The notes under the pieces are model-generated. The model saw only the letters and a list, made by a program, of their open reading frames with translations, made no database searches and was not told the origin of the DNA. Position numbers and translations under genes: made by a program. DNA of 64,000 nt from a virus (taxonomy: Duplodnaviria > Caudoviricetes), in the IMG/VR virus record IMGVR_UViG_3300017766_003100, positions 64,001-128,000 of that record; one strand, 5' to 3'. Below, piece after piece: positions 12,359-22,372 of the stretch. Position 1 is the first letter of the stretch. Each line of letters opens with the position of its first letter.

Positions 12359-12386
12359 AAAAGGGTGAGAAATCACCCTTTTTTTT
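12357..12386. terminator. Bidirectional intrinsic terminator
   Basis: AAAAAAGGGTGA-GAAA-TCACCCTTTTTT(TT) between convergent genes. Confidence 0.9.
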
Positions 12387-13908
12387 ATGATTTTATAAAT
12401 CGATATGTTGTATAATTTTTATCTGTCTCAACAACAATATTATAAACTCCAACACCAAAATTATCTAAACTTAACATTTCTATATTAGAAATCAAAAATA
12501 TATTAGGTCTTGAATAAACTAACTGACCCATATTATTATAAATTTTTAAATTAAAAGTTTCACCCTTAACACTAAAATTTTCTAATATCAAATTATTATC
12601 TTTTGTGTAAATAAGAACATCATTTAATTTTGGGTCATTTATTGCAACCGCGGATATGTCAGAATATAACATTTGACCATCTTCAAACCATTTTAATCTG
12701 TAATAAGTAAATCCATTTGGTTTGGGAAAATTGTCATTAAAATCATAATATCTTTTTCCTAAGTTTGTGACATTAACAATACCAATAGAATCAAAATTAA
12801 TTCCATCTAATGATTTTTCAATAATAAACCCATCAATATAGTCATCAACAATAACATCCCAAGTTAAATAAACATCTTTATAATCTTTTCTATATTCGGC
12901 ATTAAATGATAATAATTCAAGGGGAAATAATACACAATCCAATGTTGCAGTACCACCAAATAATAATTGATAACCATTGCCAGTATTAGATAACCACTCA
13001 TCTACTACCAAATAATAAGTTTGACCTGCAGTTACATTCATTTGAGCTAAAAACCCATCTCCTGTAACACTTTCAACATTATCAACTGCTGTTGTATTTA
13101 ATCCAGTATTTCCAGTATTGCCTGAGTCTGAACATCTTAATGGAGTTCCCAAAGTACCACAAGTTACATTAGGACCATATATACTAAAGTCATAATCATC
13201 GGTATTTGTTTGTGGGTCAATTGTAAATCTAAGAGTACCACTAGATAATATTTCAAATTGATACCAATTAGAGTGGTTTTCACCACCAGCAGGACAAGTA
13301 GTACCAACACATCCTTCAGCTGTAAGTCCAGGTCCTCTTGCATTTACATTGGTTGTTATGTCTGAACAAATAAAAGTTGCTCTTGAGCAATCATTATTAT
13401 CTGTTATATTTGGGCCATTAGTAGGTGTTGCACAAGGGACACAAGACAATGAAGCACTCCATCCTGCGTCAGTTATTGACCCATCAGAAGTGAATCTAAA
13501 AGTTAAACATCCACTAGGATTGTTAGCTGTATATGTAAATGGTACGGCAGGTGCTCCTGAAATTCTACCATTTGGTACTGTGGCTGGAGGTGTTGTAAAT
13601 ACTGGTGAATTTTGGGTTGCACCATTACCTATGGTTAAAAAATCAAAACCAGTTTCAGTTCTAAATGAATTAAATGTCACCCTAACACAATTACCAGGGA
13701 TTGTTGGACAAAATACACGATAAAGTCCACCAAGAATACTATTTGAGTAGTTACCTCCAGCACCACCATTATCAAGATAAGTTCCACTACAAGTAGATAC
13801 TAAACAATTGGTAACTCTTTCTCCTTGAATACCTGTTGTACCATGTAGATAGGTTTGTGACCATAATAGGGAGGGAATAAAAATAAGTAGTAGTAAAATG
13901 TTTTTCAT
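12385..13908 (-). CDS. Secreted CUB-domain protein with a T9SS type A-like C-terminal sorting domain
   Basis: Signal peptide MKNILLLLIFIPSLLWS|Q. CUB-like segment (CSGTYLDNGG.GGNYSN...VRVTFNSFRTETGFDFLTI). Ig-like PLELLSF...YYRLK module. C-terminal IYNNMGQLV...GVYNIVV...RFIKS. Confidence 0.8.
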   Translation of the reverse strand: MKNILLLLIFIPSLLWSQTYLHGTTGIQGERVTNCLVSTCSGTYLDNGGAGGNYSNSILGGLYRVFCPTIPGNCVRVTFNSFRTETGFDFLTIGNGATQNSPVFTTPPATVPNGRISGAPAVPFTYTANNPSGCLTFRFTSDGSITDAGWSASLSCVPCATPTNGPNITDNNDCSRATFICSDITTNVNARGPGLTAEGCVGTTCPAGGENHSNWYQFEILSSGTLRFTIDPQTNTDDYDFSIYGPNVTCGTLGTPLRCSDSGNTGNTGLNTTAVDNVESVTGDGFLAQMNVTAGQTYYLVVDEWLSNTGNGYQLLFGGTATLDCVLFPLELLSFNAEYRKDYKDVYLTWDVIVDDYIDGFIIEKSLDGINFDSIGIVNVTNLGKRYYDFNDNFPKPNGFTYYRLKWFEDGQMLYSDISAVAINDPKLNDVLIYTKDNNLILENFSVKGETFNLKIYNNMGQLVYSRPNIFLISNIEMLSLDNFGVGVYNIVVETDKNYTTYRFIKS

Positions 13909-14011: not shown

Positions 14012-14042
14012 TTTGGATATTTATAAAGAACCCCTATCTTTG
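14012..14042 (+). promoter_or_regulatory. Bacteroidota primary-sigma-type promoter
   Basis: TTTG (14012-14015), 19-nt spacer, TATCTTTG (14035-14042), matching the -33/-7 consensus TTTG-N19-21-TAnnTTTG; a TATTTAT motif lies in the spacer. Confidence 0.65.
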
Positions 14043-14046
14043 TAGG

Positions 14047-14230
14047 ACAATAAATGGTTGATGACTTACCAATAAAAGTTAGGGTGATGAAAAATCATCG
14101 GTGGACGAAAAAGATACATAGGTAAAATACATCGTAAGATGGTGTCCATTGGCTCTCCAGTATAAAGCCTAACTGGCGAAACCTTGATGAGAAGTAGGAA
14201 GAAAGGATGACGTAATTGTCATCCTTTTTT
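14047..14230 (+). ncRNA. Candidate structured non-coding RNA (~185 nt), family unknown
   Basis: Bounded by the promoter and a terminator; less AT-rich than the flanking intergenic DNA; several helices; only a 23-codon ORF. Confidence 0.4.
14202..14230. terminator. Intrinsic terminator
   Basis: AAAGGATGAC-GTAATT-GTCATCCTTT followed by T residues; may also serve the convergent minus-strand gene. Confidence 0.8.
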
Positions 14231-14813
14231 AATTTTTAATGGGATTACATTTTTGATATTTTTTATCATTAAATTTTTCTCCTTTCAATTGTGTCACCAT
14301 AATAATGTCATATAATCTTTTACCTGAAAAATTTTTTTGTATTTTAATTAGATTCGTATATTCAAGGTCATTATTAAATGTTATTAACTTTAAACAAATT
14401 ACCCTCTCCGACCAATTAAAATTTTGTATGTAATTAGTTATTTTACCCATACTTGAAAAAAGTAAATCAATTCCTTCAGTTGTTGTTGGGTCAACAATAT
14501 TTGGGTTATTTTCGTATTCAGGTTCTTTTTTTCTATCTAATCTTTGTAACCAATGGTCTGAAGGTTCAATAGTAAACCCCATTTTACTATTGGTATCATA
14601 ATAATATTCATCACCATTATTTTGATTTATTTGATTATAATGAGATTCAATATAATCTAACACATCATTCTCTTTGTCCACATCAATTTTAACTGTGGCA
14701 ATACCTTCGGTGAGGATTAGATATTTTTTTAATTCATAAAAACTAATTTGTTCAACTATTGTTTTTTGAGTAAAAAATTCCTCAATTAATATTTTTCTTA
14801 TCAAATTTCTCAT
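14229..14813 (-). CDS. Hypothetical protein with N-terminal MRNLIRKILIEE motif
   Basis: 194-aa ORF; TATTTAT on the minus strand at 14820-14826. Confidence 0.6.
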   Translation of the reverse strand: MRNLIRKILIEEFFTQKTIVEQISFYELKKYLILTEGIATVKIDVDKENDVLDYIESHYNQINQNNGDEYYYDTNSKMGFTIEPSDHWLQRLDRKKEPEYENNPNIVDPTTTEGIDLLFSSMGKITNYIQNFNWSERVICLKLITFNNDLEYTNLIKIQKNFSGKRLYDIIMVTQLKGEKFNDKKYQKCNPIKN

Positions 14814-14859
14814 ATGAATATAAATACTAATTAAATGAGTATTTATATATAAAAACTGG

Positions 14860-19651: not shown

Positions 19652-22372
19652 ATGATATCACAAGAACAAATTGAAATGTTCCTTAATGGGAACGACCCCG
19701 AACAATTTATCGTAGCAGTAGAATACGATTACGCAACAGATTCCGTTTTTAAAATCAAAGAAATTCCTGGTAAAGGAAAAGAAATAAGAAAAGACACATT
19801 CACAGCCTTCGCTTGGGTTGGTGATTTACACGGTCTTAATTTCTATAAGTCATCCAAAGGTCTTCAAAAAGAAGCGATGATAAAACACGGAATCCTAATA
19901 GAAAAATTACAAACTGGTGACAATGAAAGATTGGAAAATGGACTTAAATTTATGGTTAAGTCCCTTAAAGGTTATAGAAATCTAATCCAATTCTTTAAAG
20001 AAGGTGGAGTTGACCCTTGGGGTGAAAAAACCAAGGATTTAATATTAGTTCTACCTCCAGTTGAACAATACCTTATCCAAAAAGAAAAAAGATTATTTAA
20101 AGGTTATGAAGAATACAATGATGTAACAAGATTTGGATTCGACTTAGAAACTACCTCTTTAGAACCTAAAGATGGTAGAATCTTTATGATTGGAATCAAA
20201 ACAAATAAAGGATTACAAAAAGTAATCGAATGTTCCAACGAAGACCAAGAAAGAGCTGGTTTAGTAGAATTCTTTAGACTAATTGATGAAATTAAACCAA
20301 GTATTATTGGTGGATACAATTCATTCAACTTCGACTGGTATTGGATTATGGAAAGATGTAAAGCTCTACATTTGGATATTAAAAAGATTTGTAAGACTCT
20401 ACATCCTGAATATAAATTTAAACAATCTAATGGGATGTTAAAGTTGGCCAATGAAGTTGAATCCTTTAATCAAGTTAGTATGTGGGGATACAATATTATT
20501 GATATTCTACACTCAGTTAGAAGAGCACAAGCAATCAATTCAAATATCAAATCAGCTGGTCTTAAATATATTACCCAATATATCAATGCTGAAGCCAAAG
20601 ACCGAGTTTATATTGACCACTTGGATATTGCACCATTCTATTCAAAAAAGGAAGAGTATTGGTTGAATATTGAGAATGGTAAATATAGAAAAGTGGGAGT
20701 TGACCCAAAGATTGATGTTGTTTGTGAAAAACATTCAAATGTTTATATCAAAACAACTGGAGATAATCTTGTTGAGAGATATTTGGATGATGACTTGGAA
20801 GAAACCCTTAAAGTGGATGAAGAATTCAATCAAGGAACATTTATGTTGGCATCAATGATTCCAACAACTTATGAAAGGGTTTCAACTATGGGAACGGCAA
20901 CACTATGGAAAATGTTGATGTTGGCTTGGTCTTATAAATATAAATTGGCAATTCCACAGAAAGAACAAAAGAAAGATTTTGTAGGAGGGTTATCAAGACT
21001 ATTAAGAGTTGGTTATTCCAAGGATGTATTAAAACTTGACTATTCTTCTCTATATCCATCAATACAATTGGTTCACGATGTATTCCCTGATTGTGATATT
21101 ATGGGAGCAATGAAAGGTATGTTATCTTATTTTAGAAGTGCTCGTATTAAATACAAGAACTTGGCAGCTGAATGGTATGATAAAGATAAGAAGAAATCTC
21201 TATCTTATGATAGAAAACAATTACCTATCAAGATATTCATTAACTCGATGTTTGGTGCGTTATCAGCACCACAAGTATTTGCGTGGGGTGATATGTATAT
21301 GGGTGAACAGATTACTTGTACAGGAAGACAATATCTACGTCAGATGTTAAAGTTCTTTATGAAGAAGGGTTATACACCACTTGTATGTGATACAGATGGT
21401 ATGAACTTCTCATTACCTAAAGGTGGTGTTGATGACAGAGTATATGTTGGTAGAGGATTAAATTGGAAAGTTAAAAAGGATAAAGAATACAAAGGTTATG
21501 ATGCTGATGTTGCTGAGTTTAATGATACATTTATGAGGGGTGAGATGGCGCTGGATTGTGATGGTACTTGGAAATCTTGTATAAACTTGGCAAGAAAGAA
21601 CTATGCAACAATGGAACATAATGGTAAAGTTAAACTTACAGGTAATTCAATCAAATCCAAAAAACTTCCATTATATATTGAAGACTTCTTGGACAAAGCA
21701 ATCAAACTTTTATTGGAGGGTGAAGGTCAACAATTTGTTGAGTGGTATTATGAATATCTTACAAAGATTTATAATAAAGAAATCCCACTCCTTAAAATTG
21801 CACAAAGAGCAAAAGTTAAATTGAGTATTAAAGATTATATTGATAGGTCAAAACAAACTACTAAATCAGGTGGTGCTATGTCTAGAATGGCTCATATGGA
21901 ATTGGCCATTAAACACAATCTAAAAGTTAATCTTGGTGAAGTAATCTATTATGTTAATAATGGAACTAAAGCAAGTCACGGAGATGTACAAAAGAAAAAG
22001 GATGAAATATTATTGAATTGTTATATGTTAAATTCAAATGACATTGAAAATAATCCTGATATGACAGGTGAATATAATGTTGCGAGAGCTATTACAACAT
22101 TTAATAATCGTATTGAACCTTTATTGATTGTTTTCAAACAAGATGTTAGAGATAACTTAATTGTTGATAATCCTGAAAAAAGAACTTTCTTTACAAGTCA
22201 ACAATGTGAATTGATTAATGGTGTTCCATTTGAAGAAAAAGACCAAGATAAAATTCAAGAAGACTTATTAGATTTAGAACCAAAAGAATTGGAGTATTGG
22301 GAAAAGAGAGGAATTGACCCCAACTATATCTATGACTTGGCAGAAGAAGGATGGGAAAGATATATTGATTAA
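19652..22372 (+). CDS. polB: Family B DNA polymerase with 3'-5' exonuclease
   Basis: ExoI FDLETT, ExoII YNSFNFDW, motif A LDYSSLYPSI, motif B KIFINSMFG, motif C CDTDG. Confidence 0.95.
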   Translation: MISQEQIEMFLNGNDPEQFIVAVEYDYATDSVFKIKEIPGKGKEIRKDTFTAFAWVGDLHGLNFYKSSKGLQKEAMIKHGILIEKLQTGDNERLENGLKFMVKSLKGYRNLIQFFKEGGVDPWGEKTKDLILVLPPVEQYLIQKEKRLFKGYEEYNDVTRFGFDLETTSLEPKDGRIFMIGIKTNKGLQKVIECSNEDQERAGLVEFFRLIDEIKPSIIGGYNSFNFDWYWIMERCKALHLDIKKICKTLHPEYKFKQSNGMLKLANEVESFNQVSMWGYNIIDILHSVRRAQAINSNIKSAGLKYITQYINAEAKDRVYIDHLDIAPFYSKKEEYWLNIENGKYRKVGVDPKIDVVCEKHSNVYIKTTGDNLVERYLDDDLEETLKVDEEFNQGTFMLASMIPTTYERVSTMGTATLWKMLMLAWSYKYKLAIPQKEQKKDFVGGLSRLLRVGYSKDVLKLDYSSLYPSIQLVHDVFPDCDIMGAMKGMLSYFRSARIKYKNLAAEWYDKDKKKSLSYDRKQLPIKIFINSMFGALSAPQVFAWGDMYMGEQITCTGRQYLRQMLKFFMKKGYTPLVCDTDGMNFSLPKGGVDDRVYVGRGLNWKVKKDKEYKGYDADVAEFNDTFMRGEMALDCDGTWKSCINLARKNYATMEHNGKVKLTGNSIKSKKLPLYIEDFLDKAIKLLLEGEGQQFVEWYYEYLTKIYNKEIPLLKIAQRAKVKLSIKDYIDRSKQTTKSGGAMSRMAHMELAIKHNLKVNLGEVIYYVNNGTKASHGDVQKKKDEILLNCYMLNSNDIENNPDMTGEYNVARAITTFNNRIEPLLIVFKQDVRDNLIVDNPEKRTFFTSQQCELINGVPFEEKDQDKIQEDLLDLEPKELEYWEKRGIDPNYIYDLAEEGWERYID

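What the first reader, a model, noticed from the sequence alone, without database searches (positions are those of the whole stretch)
14012..14230. Candidate ~185-nt structured ncRNA with its own promoter and terminator
Seen: a consensus Bacteroidota promoter overlapping a TATTTAT motif points into a non-coding stretch that ends in a 10-bp terminator. Helices: GATGA-AAAA-TCATC (14086-14099); TGGAC/GTCCA (14102-14106/14144-14148) enclosing CATC-GTAA-GATG (GNRA loop, 14130-14141); CCAGT/ACTGG (14157-14161/14172-14176) competing with AGTTAGG/CCTAACT (14077-14083/14168-14174); GGCT/AGCC can form an H-type pseudoknot. GATGA recurs four times. Inference: a phage small RNA or switch. The alternative is a 23-aa peptide (14054-14125).
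Basis: partly seen in the sequence, partly recalled or inferred. Interest (0 to 1): 0.65.

Follow-up and report, generated by a model that had tools for sequence, protein, structure and literature searches.

The report
Folded phage RNA paired with nuclease
The gap holds a real gene for a folded, non-coding RNA of about 180 bases that matches no catalogued RNA family and, in every related phage examined, sits tail-to-tail with a gene for a probable RNA-cutting enzyme, so the two most likely work as a pair.

Summary
All helices and motifs sit at the stated coordinates. The fold is confirmed by evolution, not only by energy. In 19 distinct homologues, 28 of 34 base pairs keep pairing through changes on both sides, and this includes the proposed H-type pseudoknot. 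The 23-aa ORF is not conserved. Neither is the competing AGTTAGG/CCTAACT helix.

No Rfam 15 family matches. T4 rnaC and rnaD do not match.

The window is a large T4-like phage of a Bacteroidota host. Upstream of the RNA lie the phage's own TATTTAT promoter motif and a host-type -33/-7 promoter. It ends in a strong terminator.

The new result is the RNA's partner. The convergent 194-aa gene (14229-14813, minus strand) belongs to an unannotated family. Its model looks most like T4 RegB and RelE-type endoribonucleases, though the scores are modest. In 27 of 27 testable viral contigs that carry a family member, the RNA lies on the opposite strand past the gene's end (800 nt away in L146, 13-17 bits in three contigs).

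The RNA also occurs without the protein: in lake MAGs titled Saprospira (once as three tandem copies) and after phage tRNA clusters.

My best reading is an RNA partner, probably an antidote, of a RegB/RelE-like nuclease. The binding itself is inferred.

The scan noted this family before on another genome (e1-5784883).

The parts
14012..14042 (+). Host-type Bacteroidota promoter: -33 TTTG (14012-14015), 19-nt spacer, -7 TATCTTTG (14035-14042). The predicted start is near 14047-14050.
   Evidence: Pattern match, and the only intergenic match in the window. The same block is kept in L096, L015, L088, L008, L101, L024 and L001. No transcript data.
14018..14024 (+). TATTTAT, the phage's own promoter-like motif, overlapping the host-type promoter.
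   Evidence: TATTTAT lies in sense within 60 nt upstream of 14 of 42 genes, against 0.74 expected. 26 of its 42 copies are in the 8.5% of the window that is intergenic. It is present upstream of the RNA in the phage variants with upstream sequence that do not follow tRNAs, at 6-31 nt before GGUUG. It is absent from the bacterial copies.
14055..14081 (+). 5' module: conserved UGGUUGAUGACUUACC plus hairpin Pa (UGACUU 14062-14067 paired with AAGUUA 14076-14081).
   Evidence: Invariant among close variants. Pa covaries in distant ones, for example GGGCUC/GAGUUC in L133. The same 26-nt module heads unrelated transcripts in L001, L075, L077 and L081.
14083..14099 (+). Hairpin Pb (14083-14088 with 14094-14099) with a GAAAA loop.
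   Evidence: All 6 pairs change on both sides in A9. The loop is kept as GAAAA, or GGAAA in L008, in most close variants and differs in the L024, L089 and L090 types.
14101..14149 (+). P2 three-way junction. P2 is 14101-14106 with 14144-14149. P2b is 14115-14117 with 14122-14124. P2a is CAUC-GUAA-GAUG at 14130-14141. Junction strands GAAAAnGA, (G/A)AAUAC and GGU are conserved.
   Evidence: P2 has 5 of 6 pairs, P2b 3 of 3 and P2a 2 of 4 with changes on both sides. The P2a loop is GNRA in most variants. The junction bases are invariant or nearly so.
14151..14176 (+). H-type pseudoknot. S1 is GGCU 14151-14154 with AGCC 14166-14169. S2 is CCAGU 14157-14161 with ACUGG 14172-14176. The conserved GCG follows.
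   Evidence: S1 has 3 of 4 pairs and S2 5 of 5 pairs with changes on both sides. Examples for S1 are GCCU/AGGC, UCCU/AGGA, AGCU/AGCU and GGGU/ACCC. Examples for S2 are CUUAC/GUAAG, CUGGU/ACCAG and UUGGU/ACCAA.
14182..14198 (+). Hairpin P4 (CCU 14182-14184 with AGG 14196-14198). Its loop holds the conserved (C/U)GAnA.
   Evidence: Different complementary stems flank the same loop motif in other variants: CUUA/UAGG, CCUA/UAGG, GACUA/UAGUU, UCCAA/UUGGA and CAAU/AUUG. This was read by eye, not counted with a tool, and the helix is thermodynamically weak.
14202..14230 (+). Intrinsic terminator: a 10-bp stem (14202-14211 with 14218-14227), loop GTAATT, then T6. It abuts the stop codon of the convergent gene.
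   Evidence: Terminator scan. The phage variants with 3' flank show a different hairpin sequence followed by a T run at the same place. On the minus strand the tail is only UUUCUUCC.
14229..14813 (-). The convergent 194-aa gene, called F0 here: a probable RegB/RelE-fold endoribonuclease. TATTTAT sits just upstream of its start, at 14820-14826 on the minus strand.
   Evidence: No Pfam, PHROG or PADLOC match. The AlphaFold model has pLDDT 83. The best structural match is T4 RegB 2hx6, Z 5.5, followed by RelE, ParE, HigB, YafQ, YoeB, colicin E5 and CdiA-CT. Atlas structural neighbours include RelE/ParE and PBECR3. H87, R94 and G178 are invariant over 63 family members. The RNA lies beside it in 27 of 27 testable viral contigs.

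Best explanation
**Shown.** Window 14030/14050 to 14230 (plus strand) is a gene for a structured non-coding RNA of about 180-200 nt. From 5' to 3' it has:
- a conserved 5' module (UGGUUGAUGACUUACC plus hairpin Pa);
- hairpin Pb with a GAAAA loop;
- a three-way junction, P2/P2b/P2a, with a GNRA loop and conserved purine-rich junction strands;
- an H-type pseudoknot (S1, S2);
- a small hairpin P4 with a conserved loop;
- an intrinsic terminator.

The RNA is one half of a conserved two-gene module. The other half is the convergent 194-aa gene. That gene is never found without the RNA.

**Inferred.** The protein is a metal-independent endoribonuclease of the RegB/RelE fold. The folded RNA binds it directly and controls it, most likely as an antidote that keeps the nuclease in check until it is needed. 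This is the logic of a type III toxin-antitoxin pair. The pseudoknot-P4 half would be the part matched to each nuclease subtype. The 5' half would be a generic handle.

Both genes carry the phage's TATTTAT promoter motif, so they would be made in the same phase of infection. The RNA copies found without the protein, in the presumed host and after phage tRNA clusters, would then be stand-alone antidotes.
For: **The RNA is real**
- Covariation in all seven counted helices: 28 of 34 pairs change on both sides, against 14.9 +/- 1.8 in shuffles. 93.2% of cells pair, against 27-50% when partners are slid.
- The RNA core is more conserved than the neighbouring gene's DNA in 45 of 45 pairs.
- A hairpin plus T run ends the phage variants that have 3' flank in hand.
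- The promoter motif TATTTAT is strongly enriched upstream of genes.

**The pairing with the gene**
- All 15 viral contigs with close F0 homologues have the RNA convergent, 47-65 nt past the matched end of the gene.
- So do 3 of 3 and 9 of 9 testable contigs with distant family members, at 26-36% identity.
- Even the weak model hits of 12.6-17 bits fall at the expected place and strand.
- L074 keeps the pair although its other neighbours are unrelated. L001 lacks both F0 and the RNA body.
- F0 identity tracks the pseudoknot-plus-tail domain (rho 0.82). It does not track the 5' module (0.35) or the P2 domain (0.24).

**The nuclease assignment**
- H87, R94 and G178 are invariant; E36, P109, E113 and K177 are nearly so.
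- hhalign places H87/R91 on RegB H48/R52. H48 is one of RegB's two catalytic histidines (PMC3014915).
- That review also raises the possibility that T4 encodes an anti-RegB partner.
Against: - There is no transcript, binding or toxicity data of any kind.
- The structural match of the protein is modest (Z 5.5, and 4-5 for RelE-type chains). The tool warns that such values can reflect a common arrangement.
- hhalign against RegB is not significant (probability about 1%).
- The second catalytic histidine of RegB has no conserved counterpart.
- The RNA occurs without the protein: in L089, L090, L114 and L115, and beside tRNA clusters in L098-L100. So it may have a function of its own.
- The link between F0 subtype and the 3' domain can be explained by physical linkage alone, since that domain is the part nearest the gene.
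- A lytic phage does not obviously need an antidote. T4 RegB has no known one.
- The layout differs from every known type III system: convergent genes and one long RNA unit, with no repeats.
Confidence: 0.45

Rival explanations
1. The RNA is a cofactor, guide or dedicated substrate of the nuclease-like protein (an RNA-protein enzyme), not its inhibitor.
For: The same obligate pairing and the co-segregation of the 3' domain fit this as well. T4 RegB needs a helper, ribosomal protein S1, for activity (PMC1702504 abstract; PMC3014915).
Against: No known RelE/RegB-fold nuclease uses an RNA cofactor (own knowledge). RNA copies without the protein would have no role.
Confidence: 0.17
2. The RNA is an independent trans-acting RNA taken from the host. 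It would be a decoy or regulator that binds a host factor through the shared 5' module. Its position beside the nuclease gene would only reflect a shared hot spot of recombination.
For: Homologues lie in 4 of 12 MAGs of one genus (titled Saprospira), one of them beside rplT and Fe-S genes. The 5' module alone heads the 5' UTRs of unrelated genes. The RNA follows tRNA clusters in L098-L100.
Against: It does not explain why 27 of 27 testable F0-family contigs keep the RNA convergent with the gene, 24 of them within about 100 nt of its matched end, across protein divergence down to about 26% identity. In the distant variants the 5' module is the least conserved part, while the junction and pseudoknot persist.
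Confidence: 0.15
3. The RNA is an antisense regulator. Because the two convergent transcripts share the terminator hairpin, the RNA pairs with the 3' end of the nuclease mRNA and triggers its decay, as in type I toxin-antitoxin pairs with 3' overlap.
For: The two genes abut: the stop codon is at 14229-14231 and the terminator stem runs 14202-14227. On the minus strand the hairpin has a poor U tail, so read-through into the RNA gene is plausible.
Against: Antisense action needs no conserved three-way junction or pseudoknot. The covariation shows selection on an intramolecular fold. In L146 the RNA lies about 800 nt from the matched end of the gene. Known type I toxins are small hydrophobic peptides (own knowledge).
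Confidence: 0.08
4. The element is a cis-acting leader or riboswitch.
For: The short variants in L114 and L115 end in a U run and are followed about 45 nt later by a 140-aa ORF on the same strand.
Against: In the window and in all F0-linked loci, the next gene is on the opposite strand and a strong terminator ends the RNA.
Confidence: 0.04
5. The stretch encodes the 23-aa peptide (14054-14125), or it is only a promoter-like chance match plus the terminator of the convergent gene.
For: An ATG-started ORF exists in the window. Without the terminator the folding z-score is only -1.3.
Against: The start codon is lost in L008, L101, L074 and L089, and there are frame-breaking indels. The covariation cannot be explained by coding or by chance.
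Confidence: 0.01

Closest known systems
Type III toxin-antitoxin systems (ToxIN, CptIN, TenpIN)
   Same: A pseudoknotted RNA gene sits next to a gene for a small endoribonuclease. Here the protein gene is never seen without the RNA, while the RNA is seen alone. The module evolves fast in phage-host conflict settings.
   Different: The protein has no ToxN-type signature, and its model resembles RegB/RelE. The RNA is one long unit of about 180 nt with a three-way junction, not an array of roughly 36-nt repeats. The genes are convergent and share a terminator, instead of the RNA lying upstream on the same strand. Neither toxicity nor binding has been shown.
Phage T4 RegB endoribonuclease (PDB 2hx6) and the RelE/YoeB toxin fold
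   Same: RegB is the best structural match of the neighbouring protein (Z 5.5, 122 residues aligned). Both are small early-type nucleases of T4-like phages. A strand-then-His-x3-Arg motif lines up with RegB's catalytic His48.
   Different: There is no significant sequence similarity. RegB's second catalytic His68 has no conserved counterpart. The protein here has an extra N-terminal region. T4 RegB has no known RNA partner.
T4 stable RNAs rnaC and rnaD (species 1 and 2)
   Same: Both are small stable RNAs of unknown function in T4-like phages. In L098-L100 the RNA follows a tRNA cluster (8 nt after the last tRNA in L098 and L099), as rnaD and rnaC follow tRNA-Arg in T4.
   Different: There is no sequence or structure match: 7.6 bits, the same as background. 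In the window the RNA is not near tRNAs and has its own promoter.
Rfam 15 families (all 4227)
   Same: None.
   Different: Nothing reaches gathering score in the window. In the 451-nt region at E up to 10, the matches were far below gathering scores and lay mostly on the terminator. In six homologous loci only tRNAs matched.

Membership tests
Type III toxin-antitoxin | The toxin is a ToxN/AbiQ-type (or CptN/TenpN) endoribonuclease | tested here: not met
   No Pfam, PHROG or PADLOC match. The fold matches are RegB and RelE-type chains.
Type III toxin-antitoxin | The antitoxin is an array of short tandem RNA repeats upstream of the toxin gene on the same strand | tested here: not met
   A single unit of about 180 nt, convergent with the protein gene. 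The tandem copies in L089 are whole 200-nt genes, each with its own terminator, and no protein gene accompanies them.
Type III toxin-antitoxin | The RNA forms a pseudoknot and binds and inhibits the protein directly | not testable with these tools
   The pseudoknot is shown by covariation. Binding and inhibition need experiments.
Type III toxin-antitoxin | The toxin gene is always accompanied by its antitoxin | tested here: met
   27 of 27 testable viral contigs.
T4 RegB / RelE-fold endoribonucleases (for the neighbouring protein) | Helices followed by a four-stranded antiparallel sheet, RelE/YoeB-like | tested here: inconclusive
   Model pLDDT 83. RegB is the top of 48,161 chains at Z 5.5, and at least 20 of the next 40 are RelE/ParE-type toxins or related RNase toxins. 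Z is below the tool's caution level of 8. Foldseek gave no hit at E <= 0.001.
T4 RegB / RelE-fold endoribonucleases (for the neighbouring protein) | Catalytic His48 and His68 of RegB | tested here: inconclusive
   The invariant H87 aligns with H48 in two hhalign runs, but the probability is about 1%. No second invariant His exists. The residue roles come from PMC3014915.
Any Rfam family | Score at or above the family's gathering threshold | tested here: not met
T4 rnaC/rnaD stable RNAs | Similarity in sequence and structure | tested here: not met
   The covariance model R1 scores 7.6 bits on rnaC, equal to background.
H-type RNA pseudoknot | Two stems, with the loop of one pairing with sequence outside it, both kept in evolution | tested here: met
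   S1 has 3 of 4 and S2 has 5 of 5 pairs with compensatory changes.
Bacteroidota housekeeping-sigma promoter | -33 TTTG and -7 TAnnTTTG about 19 nt apart | tested here: met
   Exact match at 14012-14042. Whether it is used is not testable here.
Riboswitch / cis leader | A regulated gene downstream on the same strand | tested here: not met
   The next gene is convergent. Only the short bacterial variants in L114 and L115 precede an ORF.
Small protein gene | Start codon and reading frame conserved | tested here: not met
   The ATG is replaced by GGG or AGG, and there are 1-2 nt indels.

The most novel reading that the evidence does not exclude
This is a new class of RNA-nuclease pair. A pseudoknotted RNA of about 180 nt would be the dedicated antidote, and the specificity partner, of a RegB/RelE-fold endoribonuclease carried by large phages. 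It would be the first RNA antidote for this nuclease fold, and an example of the 'anti-RegB partner' that T4 researchers have asked about. The orphan RNA copies in the host, three different ones in tandem beside a restriction system, would then be host-side antidotes that blunt the phage nuclease.
Probability: 0.2. Interest if true: 0.85.

Novelty: new variant of a known kind. Interest (0 to 1): 0.75.

Why it matters
**An uncatalogued RNA family.** It is well supported and has a complex architecture: a three-way junction, an H-type pseudoknot and three GNRA-like loops. RNAs of this kind usually turn out to bind a protein or ligand, or to catalyse a reaction.

**A conserved partnership.** The RNA's fixed pairing with an unannotated family of RegB/RelE-like proteins gives a concrete, testable hypothesis for both genes.

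**Possible reach.**
- If the RNA is an antidote, RNA antitoxins would extend to the RelE/RegB nuclease fold.
- It would bear on the possibility, raised in the T4 literature (PMC3014915), that RegB-type phage nucleases have partners.
- RNA homologues in lake MAGs of one genus (titled Saprospira) also suggest a host for this uncultured group of 320-kb phages.

Tried and rejected
**RNA comparisons**
- Rfam at gathering and at permissive thresholds found nothing. ARAGORN found no tRNA or tmRNA in the window.
- T4 rnaC and rnaD gave no match.
- blastn of the gap against GenBank phages gave no match.
- From memory I compared the RNA with hammerhead (CUGAUGA), HDV-like or theta, pistol and twister ribozymes. 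The stem order does not fit HDV, and Rfam models of these classes did not hit. This is not a formal test.

**Structure details rejected**
- The MFE closing stem and RNAalifold's GUU/GCG helix conflict with the covarying S2.

**Distribution**
- A first protein-pattern search with F0 found nothing. A profile was needed.
- Complete 321-322 kb relatives (PolB about 76% identical) lack both the RNA and F0.
- In a sample of 151 genomes from the bacterial family, only the starting MAG matched.

**The neighbouring protein**
- F0 has no Pfam, PHROG or PADLOC match, no PDB sequence match and no GenBank-phage match.

**Not done**
- A second covariance model including the short bacterial variants was not built.

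Full report
**1. Setting**

The window is a low-GC (about 30%) large myovirus. It carries a tail sheath gene, gp32, a UvsX/RecA-like gene, a DnaB-like helicase, family B polymerase and ribonucleotide reductase. Complete relatives are 321-322 kb.

The finding lies in a 320-nt gap between two minus-strand genes. One is a secreted protein with a type IX sorting tail (12385-13908). The other is an unannotated 194-aa gene (14229-14813), called F0 here.

**2. The observation**

- The -33/-7 promoter pattern matches exactly at 14012-14042 and is the only intergenic match in the window.
- The terminator is the only one found in 2.5 kb.
- Energy alone is weak evidence. The z-score is -4.6 with the terminator and -1.3 without it.
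- Rfam gives nothing at gathering score, and only sub-threshold chance-level matches, mostly on the terminator, at E up to 10.

**3. Homologues and structure**

I collected homologues in three steps.
- A PolB search fetched 71 related phage loci. blastn found the gap conserved in the closer ones.
- A scan for the most conserved 26 nt added viral, metagenome and MAG loci.
- A covariance model, R1, built from seven variants, scores 17 distinct variants at 87-152 bits.

Counting pairs gave these results.

| Alignment | Cells paired | Slid controls | Pairs changed on both sides | Shuffles |
|---|---|---|---|---|
| MAFFT, 7 variants | 91.9% | 30-48% | 14 | 7.4 |
| Model-fitted, 19 variants (3 distant) | 93.2% | 27-50% | 28 of 34 | 14.9 +/- 1.8, 0/500 |

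The 19-variant alignment leans towards the structure, because it was fitted to the model.

The structure, in window coordinates, passed a base-pair check:
- Pa: 14062-67 with 14076-81.
- Pb: 14083-88 with 14094-99, loop GAAAA.
- P2: 14101-06 with 14144-49. It encloses P2b (14115-17 with 14122-24) and P2a (14130-33 with 14138-41, GNRA loop).
- Pseudoknot: S1 14151-54 with 14166-69, and S2 14157-61 with 14172-76.
- P4: 14182-84 with 14196-98. It is supported by different complementary stems around a conserved (C/U)GAnA loop, read by eye.
- Terminator: 14202-11 with 14218-27.

About 60 G-U cells fix the strand as plus.

The 23-aa ORF loses its ATG and its frame in homologues. The competing helix AGTTAGG/CCTAACT is not kept.

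**4. Expression signals**

TATTTAT lies in sense within 60 nt upstream of 14 of 42 genes, against 0.74 expected. These include the sheath gene and F0. I take it to be a phage promoter motif.
- The RNA has it at 14018-24, overlapping the host-type promoter.
- The phage variants with upstream sequence that do not follow tRNAs keep TATTTAT upstream, at varying distance. The bacterial copies do not, and some have a GGAACT-containing upstream region instead.
- In L098 and L099 the RNA begins 8 nt after a six-tRNA cluster. L100 has tRNAs upstream as well. This recalls T4 rnaC and rnaD, but the model does not match those RNAs.

**5. The partner gene**

Neighbour clustering showed F0 convergent with the RNA in every PolB-linked locus and in L074, whose other neighbours are unrelated. 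L001 lacks both F0 and the RNA body.

What F0 is:
- It has no family match.
- The AlphaFold model from nine homologues has pLDDT 83.
- Foldseek gave only weak RelE, HigB, YafQ and ParE rows.
- The exhaustive aligner ranked T4 RegB first (2hx6, Z 5.5, 122 residues). CdiA-CT, RelE, ParE, HigB2, YafQ, YoeB, colicin E5 and BrnT followed.
- The Atlas listed RelE/ParE and PBECR3 nuclease clusters among its structural neighbours.
- An exhaustive profile search found 92 representative proteins. Over 63 of them H87, R94 and G178 are invariant, and E36, P109, E113 and K177 nearly so.
- hhalign against T4 RegB is not significant. Twice, however, it placed F-x-I-x-x-T-x-H-W-L-Q-R on RegB's FHLKYSQHLLDR, so that H87 falls on His48.
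- His48 is one of RegB's two catalytic histidines according to PMC3014915. That review also notes RegB's similarity to RelE and YoeB, and raises the possibility of an anti-RegB partner.

I therefore read F0 as a probable RegB/RelE-fold endoribonuclease, with moderate confidence.

**6. Strength of the pairing**

| F0 set | Contigs with the convergent RNA |
|---|---|
| Close homologues | 15 of 15, RNA core ending 47-65 nt past the gene match |
| Distant members (26-33% identity) | 3 of 3, at 57, 28 and 25 bits |
| Second distant set | 9 of 9 testable, 71.6 down to 12.6 bits |

In the second distant set, L146 has the RNA 800 nt away and L141 is cut off. Even the weak hits fall at the expected place and strand.

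Other relevant results:
- In the distant variants the three-way junction and the pseudoknot persist with fully compensated stems. The 5' module is the part that drifts.
- Among close variants the RNA core is more conserved than F0's DNA in 45 of 45 pairs.
- F0 identity follows the pseudoknot-plus-tail domain (rho 0.82). It does not follow the 5' module (0.35) or the P2 domain (0.24). Recombination breakpoints therefore lie inside the RNA gene.
- This fits co-adaptation, but physical linkage alone could produce it.

**7. RNA without the protein**

- L089 comes from a lake MAG titled Saprospira. It has three tandem, non-identical copies beside a resolvase and a type I methylase.
- L090 lies in plain chromosomal context, with rplT and Fe-S genes.
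- 4 of 12 genomes of that genus have a hit. These include short variants that end after P2 and precede a 140-aa ORF.
- No F0 is found in these MAGs.
- In a sample of 151 genomes from the bacterial family, only the starting MAG matched.

**8. Reading**

Shown: a real RNA gene of a new family, and its obligate linkage with an unannotated protein family.

Inferred: the protein is a nuclease, and the RNA binds and restrains it, which is type III toxin-antitoxin logic. Two defining features of type III systems are not met, so I do not file it as a member.

Rivals are a cofactor or substrate role, an independent host-derived decoy, and antisense control through the shared terminator.

I saw it only after finding the F0 link and the first RelE-type structural hints, and I tested its claims independently here.

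Noticed in passing
window, whole; e.g. 7404, 14820(-), 14840, 31361, 35043, 36037, 37571, 39481: TATTTAT lies in sense within 60 nt upstream of 14 of 42 genes, against 0.74 expected. It is probably this phage group's own (late?) promoter element, analogous to T4's TATAAATA.
   Followed up: partly
window 14814-14859: The 46-nt gap between F0 and the divergent DUF285 gene holds two TATTTAT motifs facing opposite ways, within a near-palindrome. It looks like a compact divergent promoter pair.
   Followed up: no
L077:5655-5760(-), L081:385-475(-), L075:7600-7665(+): The 26-nt 5' module (GGUUGAUGACUUACC plus hairpin Pa) also starts the 5' UTRs of unrelated protein genes in other viral contigs. In L077 and L081 it lies just after a TTTG/TAAATTTG promoter. 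This suggests a stand-alone RNA handle recognised by some factor.
   Followed up: partly
L001:8674-8855(+) and L001:8860-9378(+): A close relative (PolB 96% identical) keeps the promoter and the 5' module. The rest of the RNA is replaced by a different hairpin-rich body with its own terminator. F0 is replaced by a same-strand 172-aa gene that hhalign links weakly to the F0 family (E 0.003). This may be an alternative RNA-protein cassette.
   Followed up: partly
L089:1750-2800(-): Three tandem, diverged copies of the RNA lie in a lake MAG titled Saprospira. Copies 2 and 3 are each followed by a second repeated element of about 90 nt with its own hairpin. Neighbours are a serine recombinase, a type I R-M methylase and a WD40 protein.
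   Followed up: partly
L098:743-1239(+): A phage cluster of six tRNAs (Asp, Glu, Ile-tat, Ile-gat, Met, Gly) lies directly upstream of the RNA. Rfam hints at a seventh tRNA at 609-674.
   Followed up: no
L114:746-2063, L115:1-650: In two MAGs of the same genus, a short form of the RNA lacks the pseudoknot and ends in a U run. It sits in the order tRNA, GIY-YIG gene, RNA, 140-aa ORF, which looks like an island inserted next to a tRNA gene.
   Followed up: no
window 14229-14813 versus 19652-22372: F0 is only 33-37% identical between phages whose PolB is 99% (L015) or 83-93% identical. This locus is a hot spot of replacement.
   Followed up: yes
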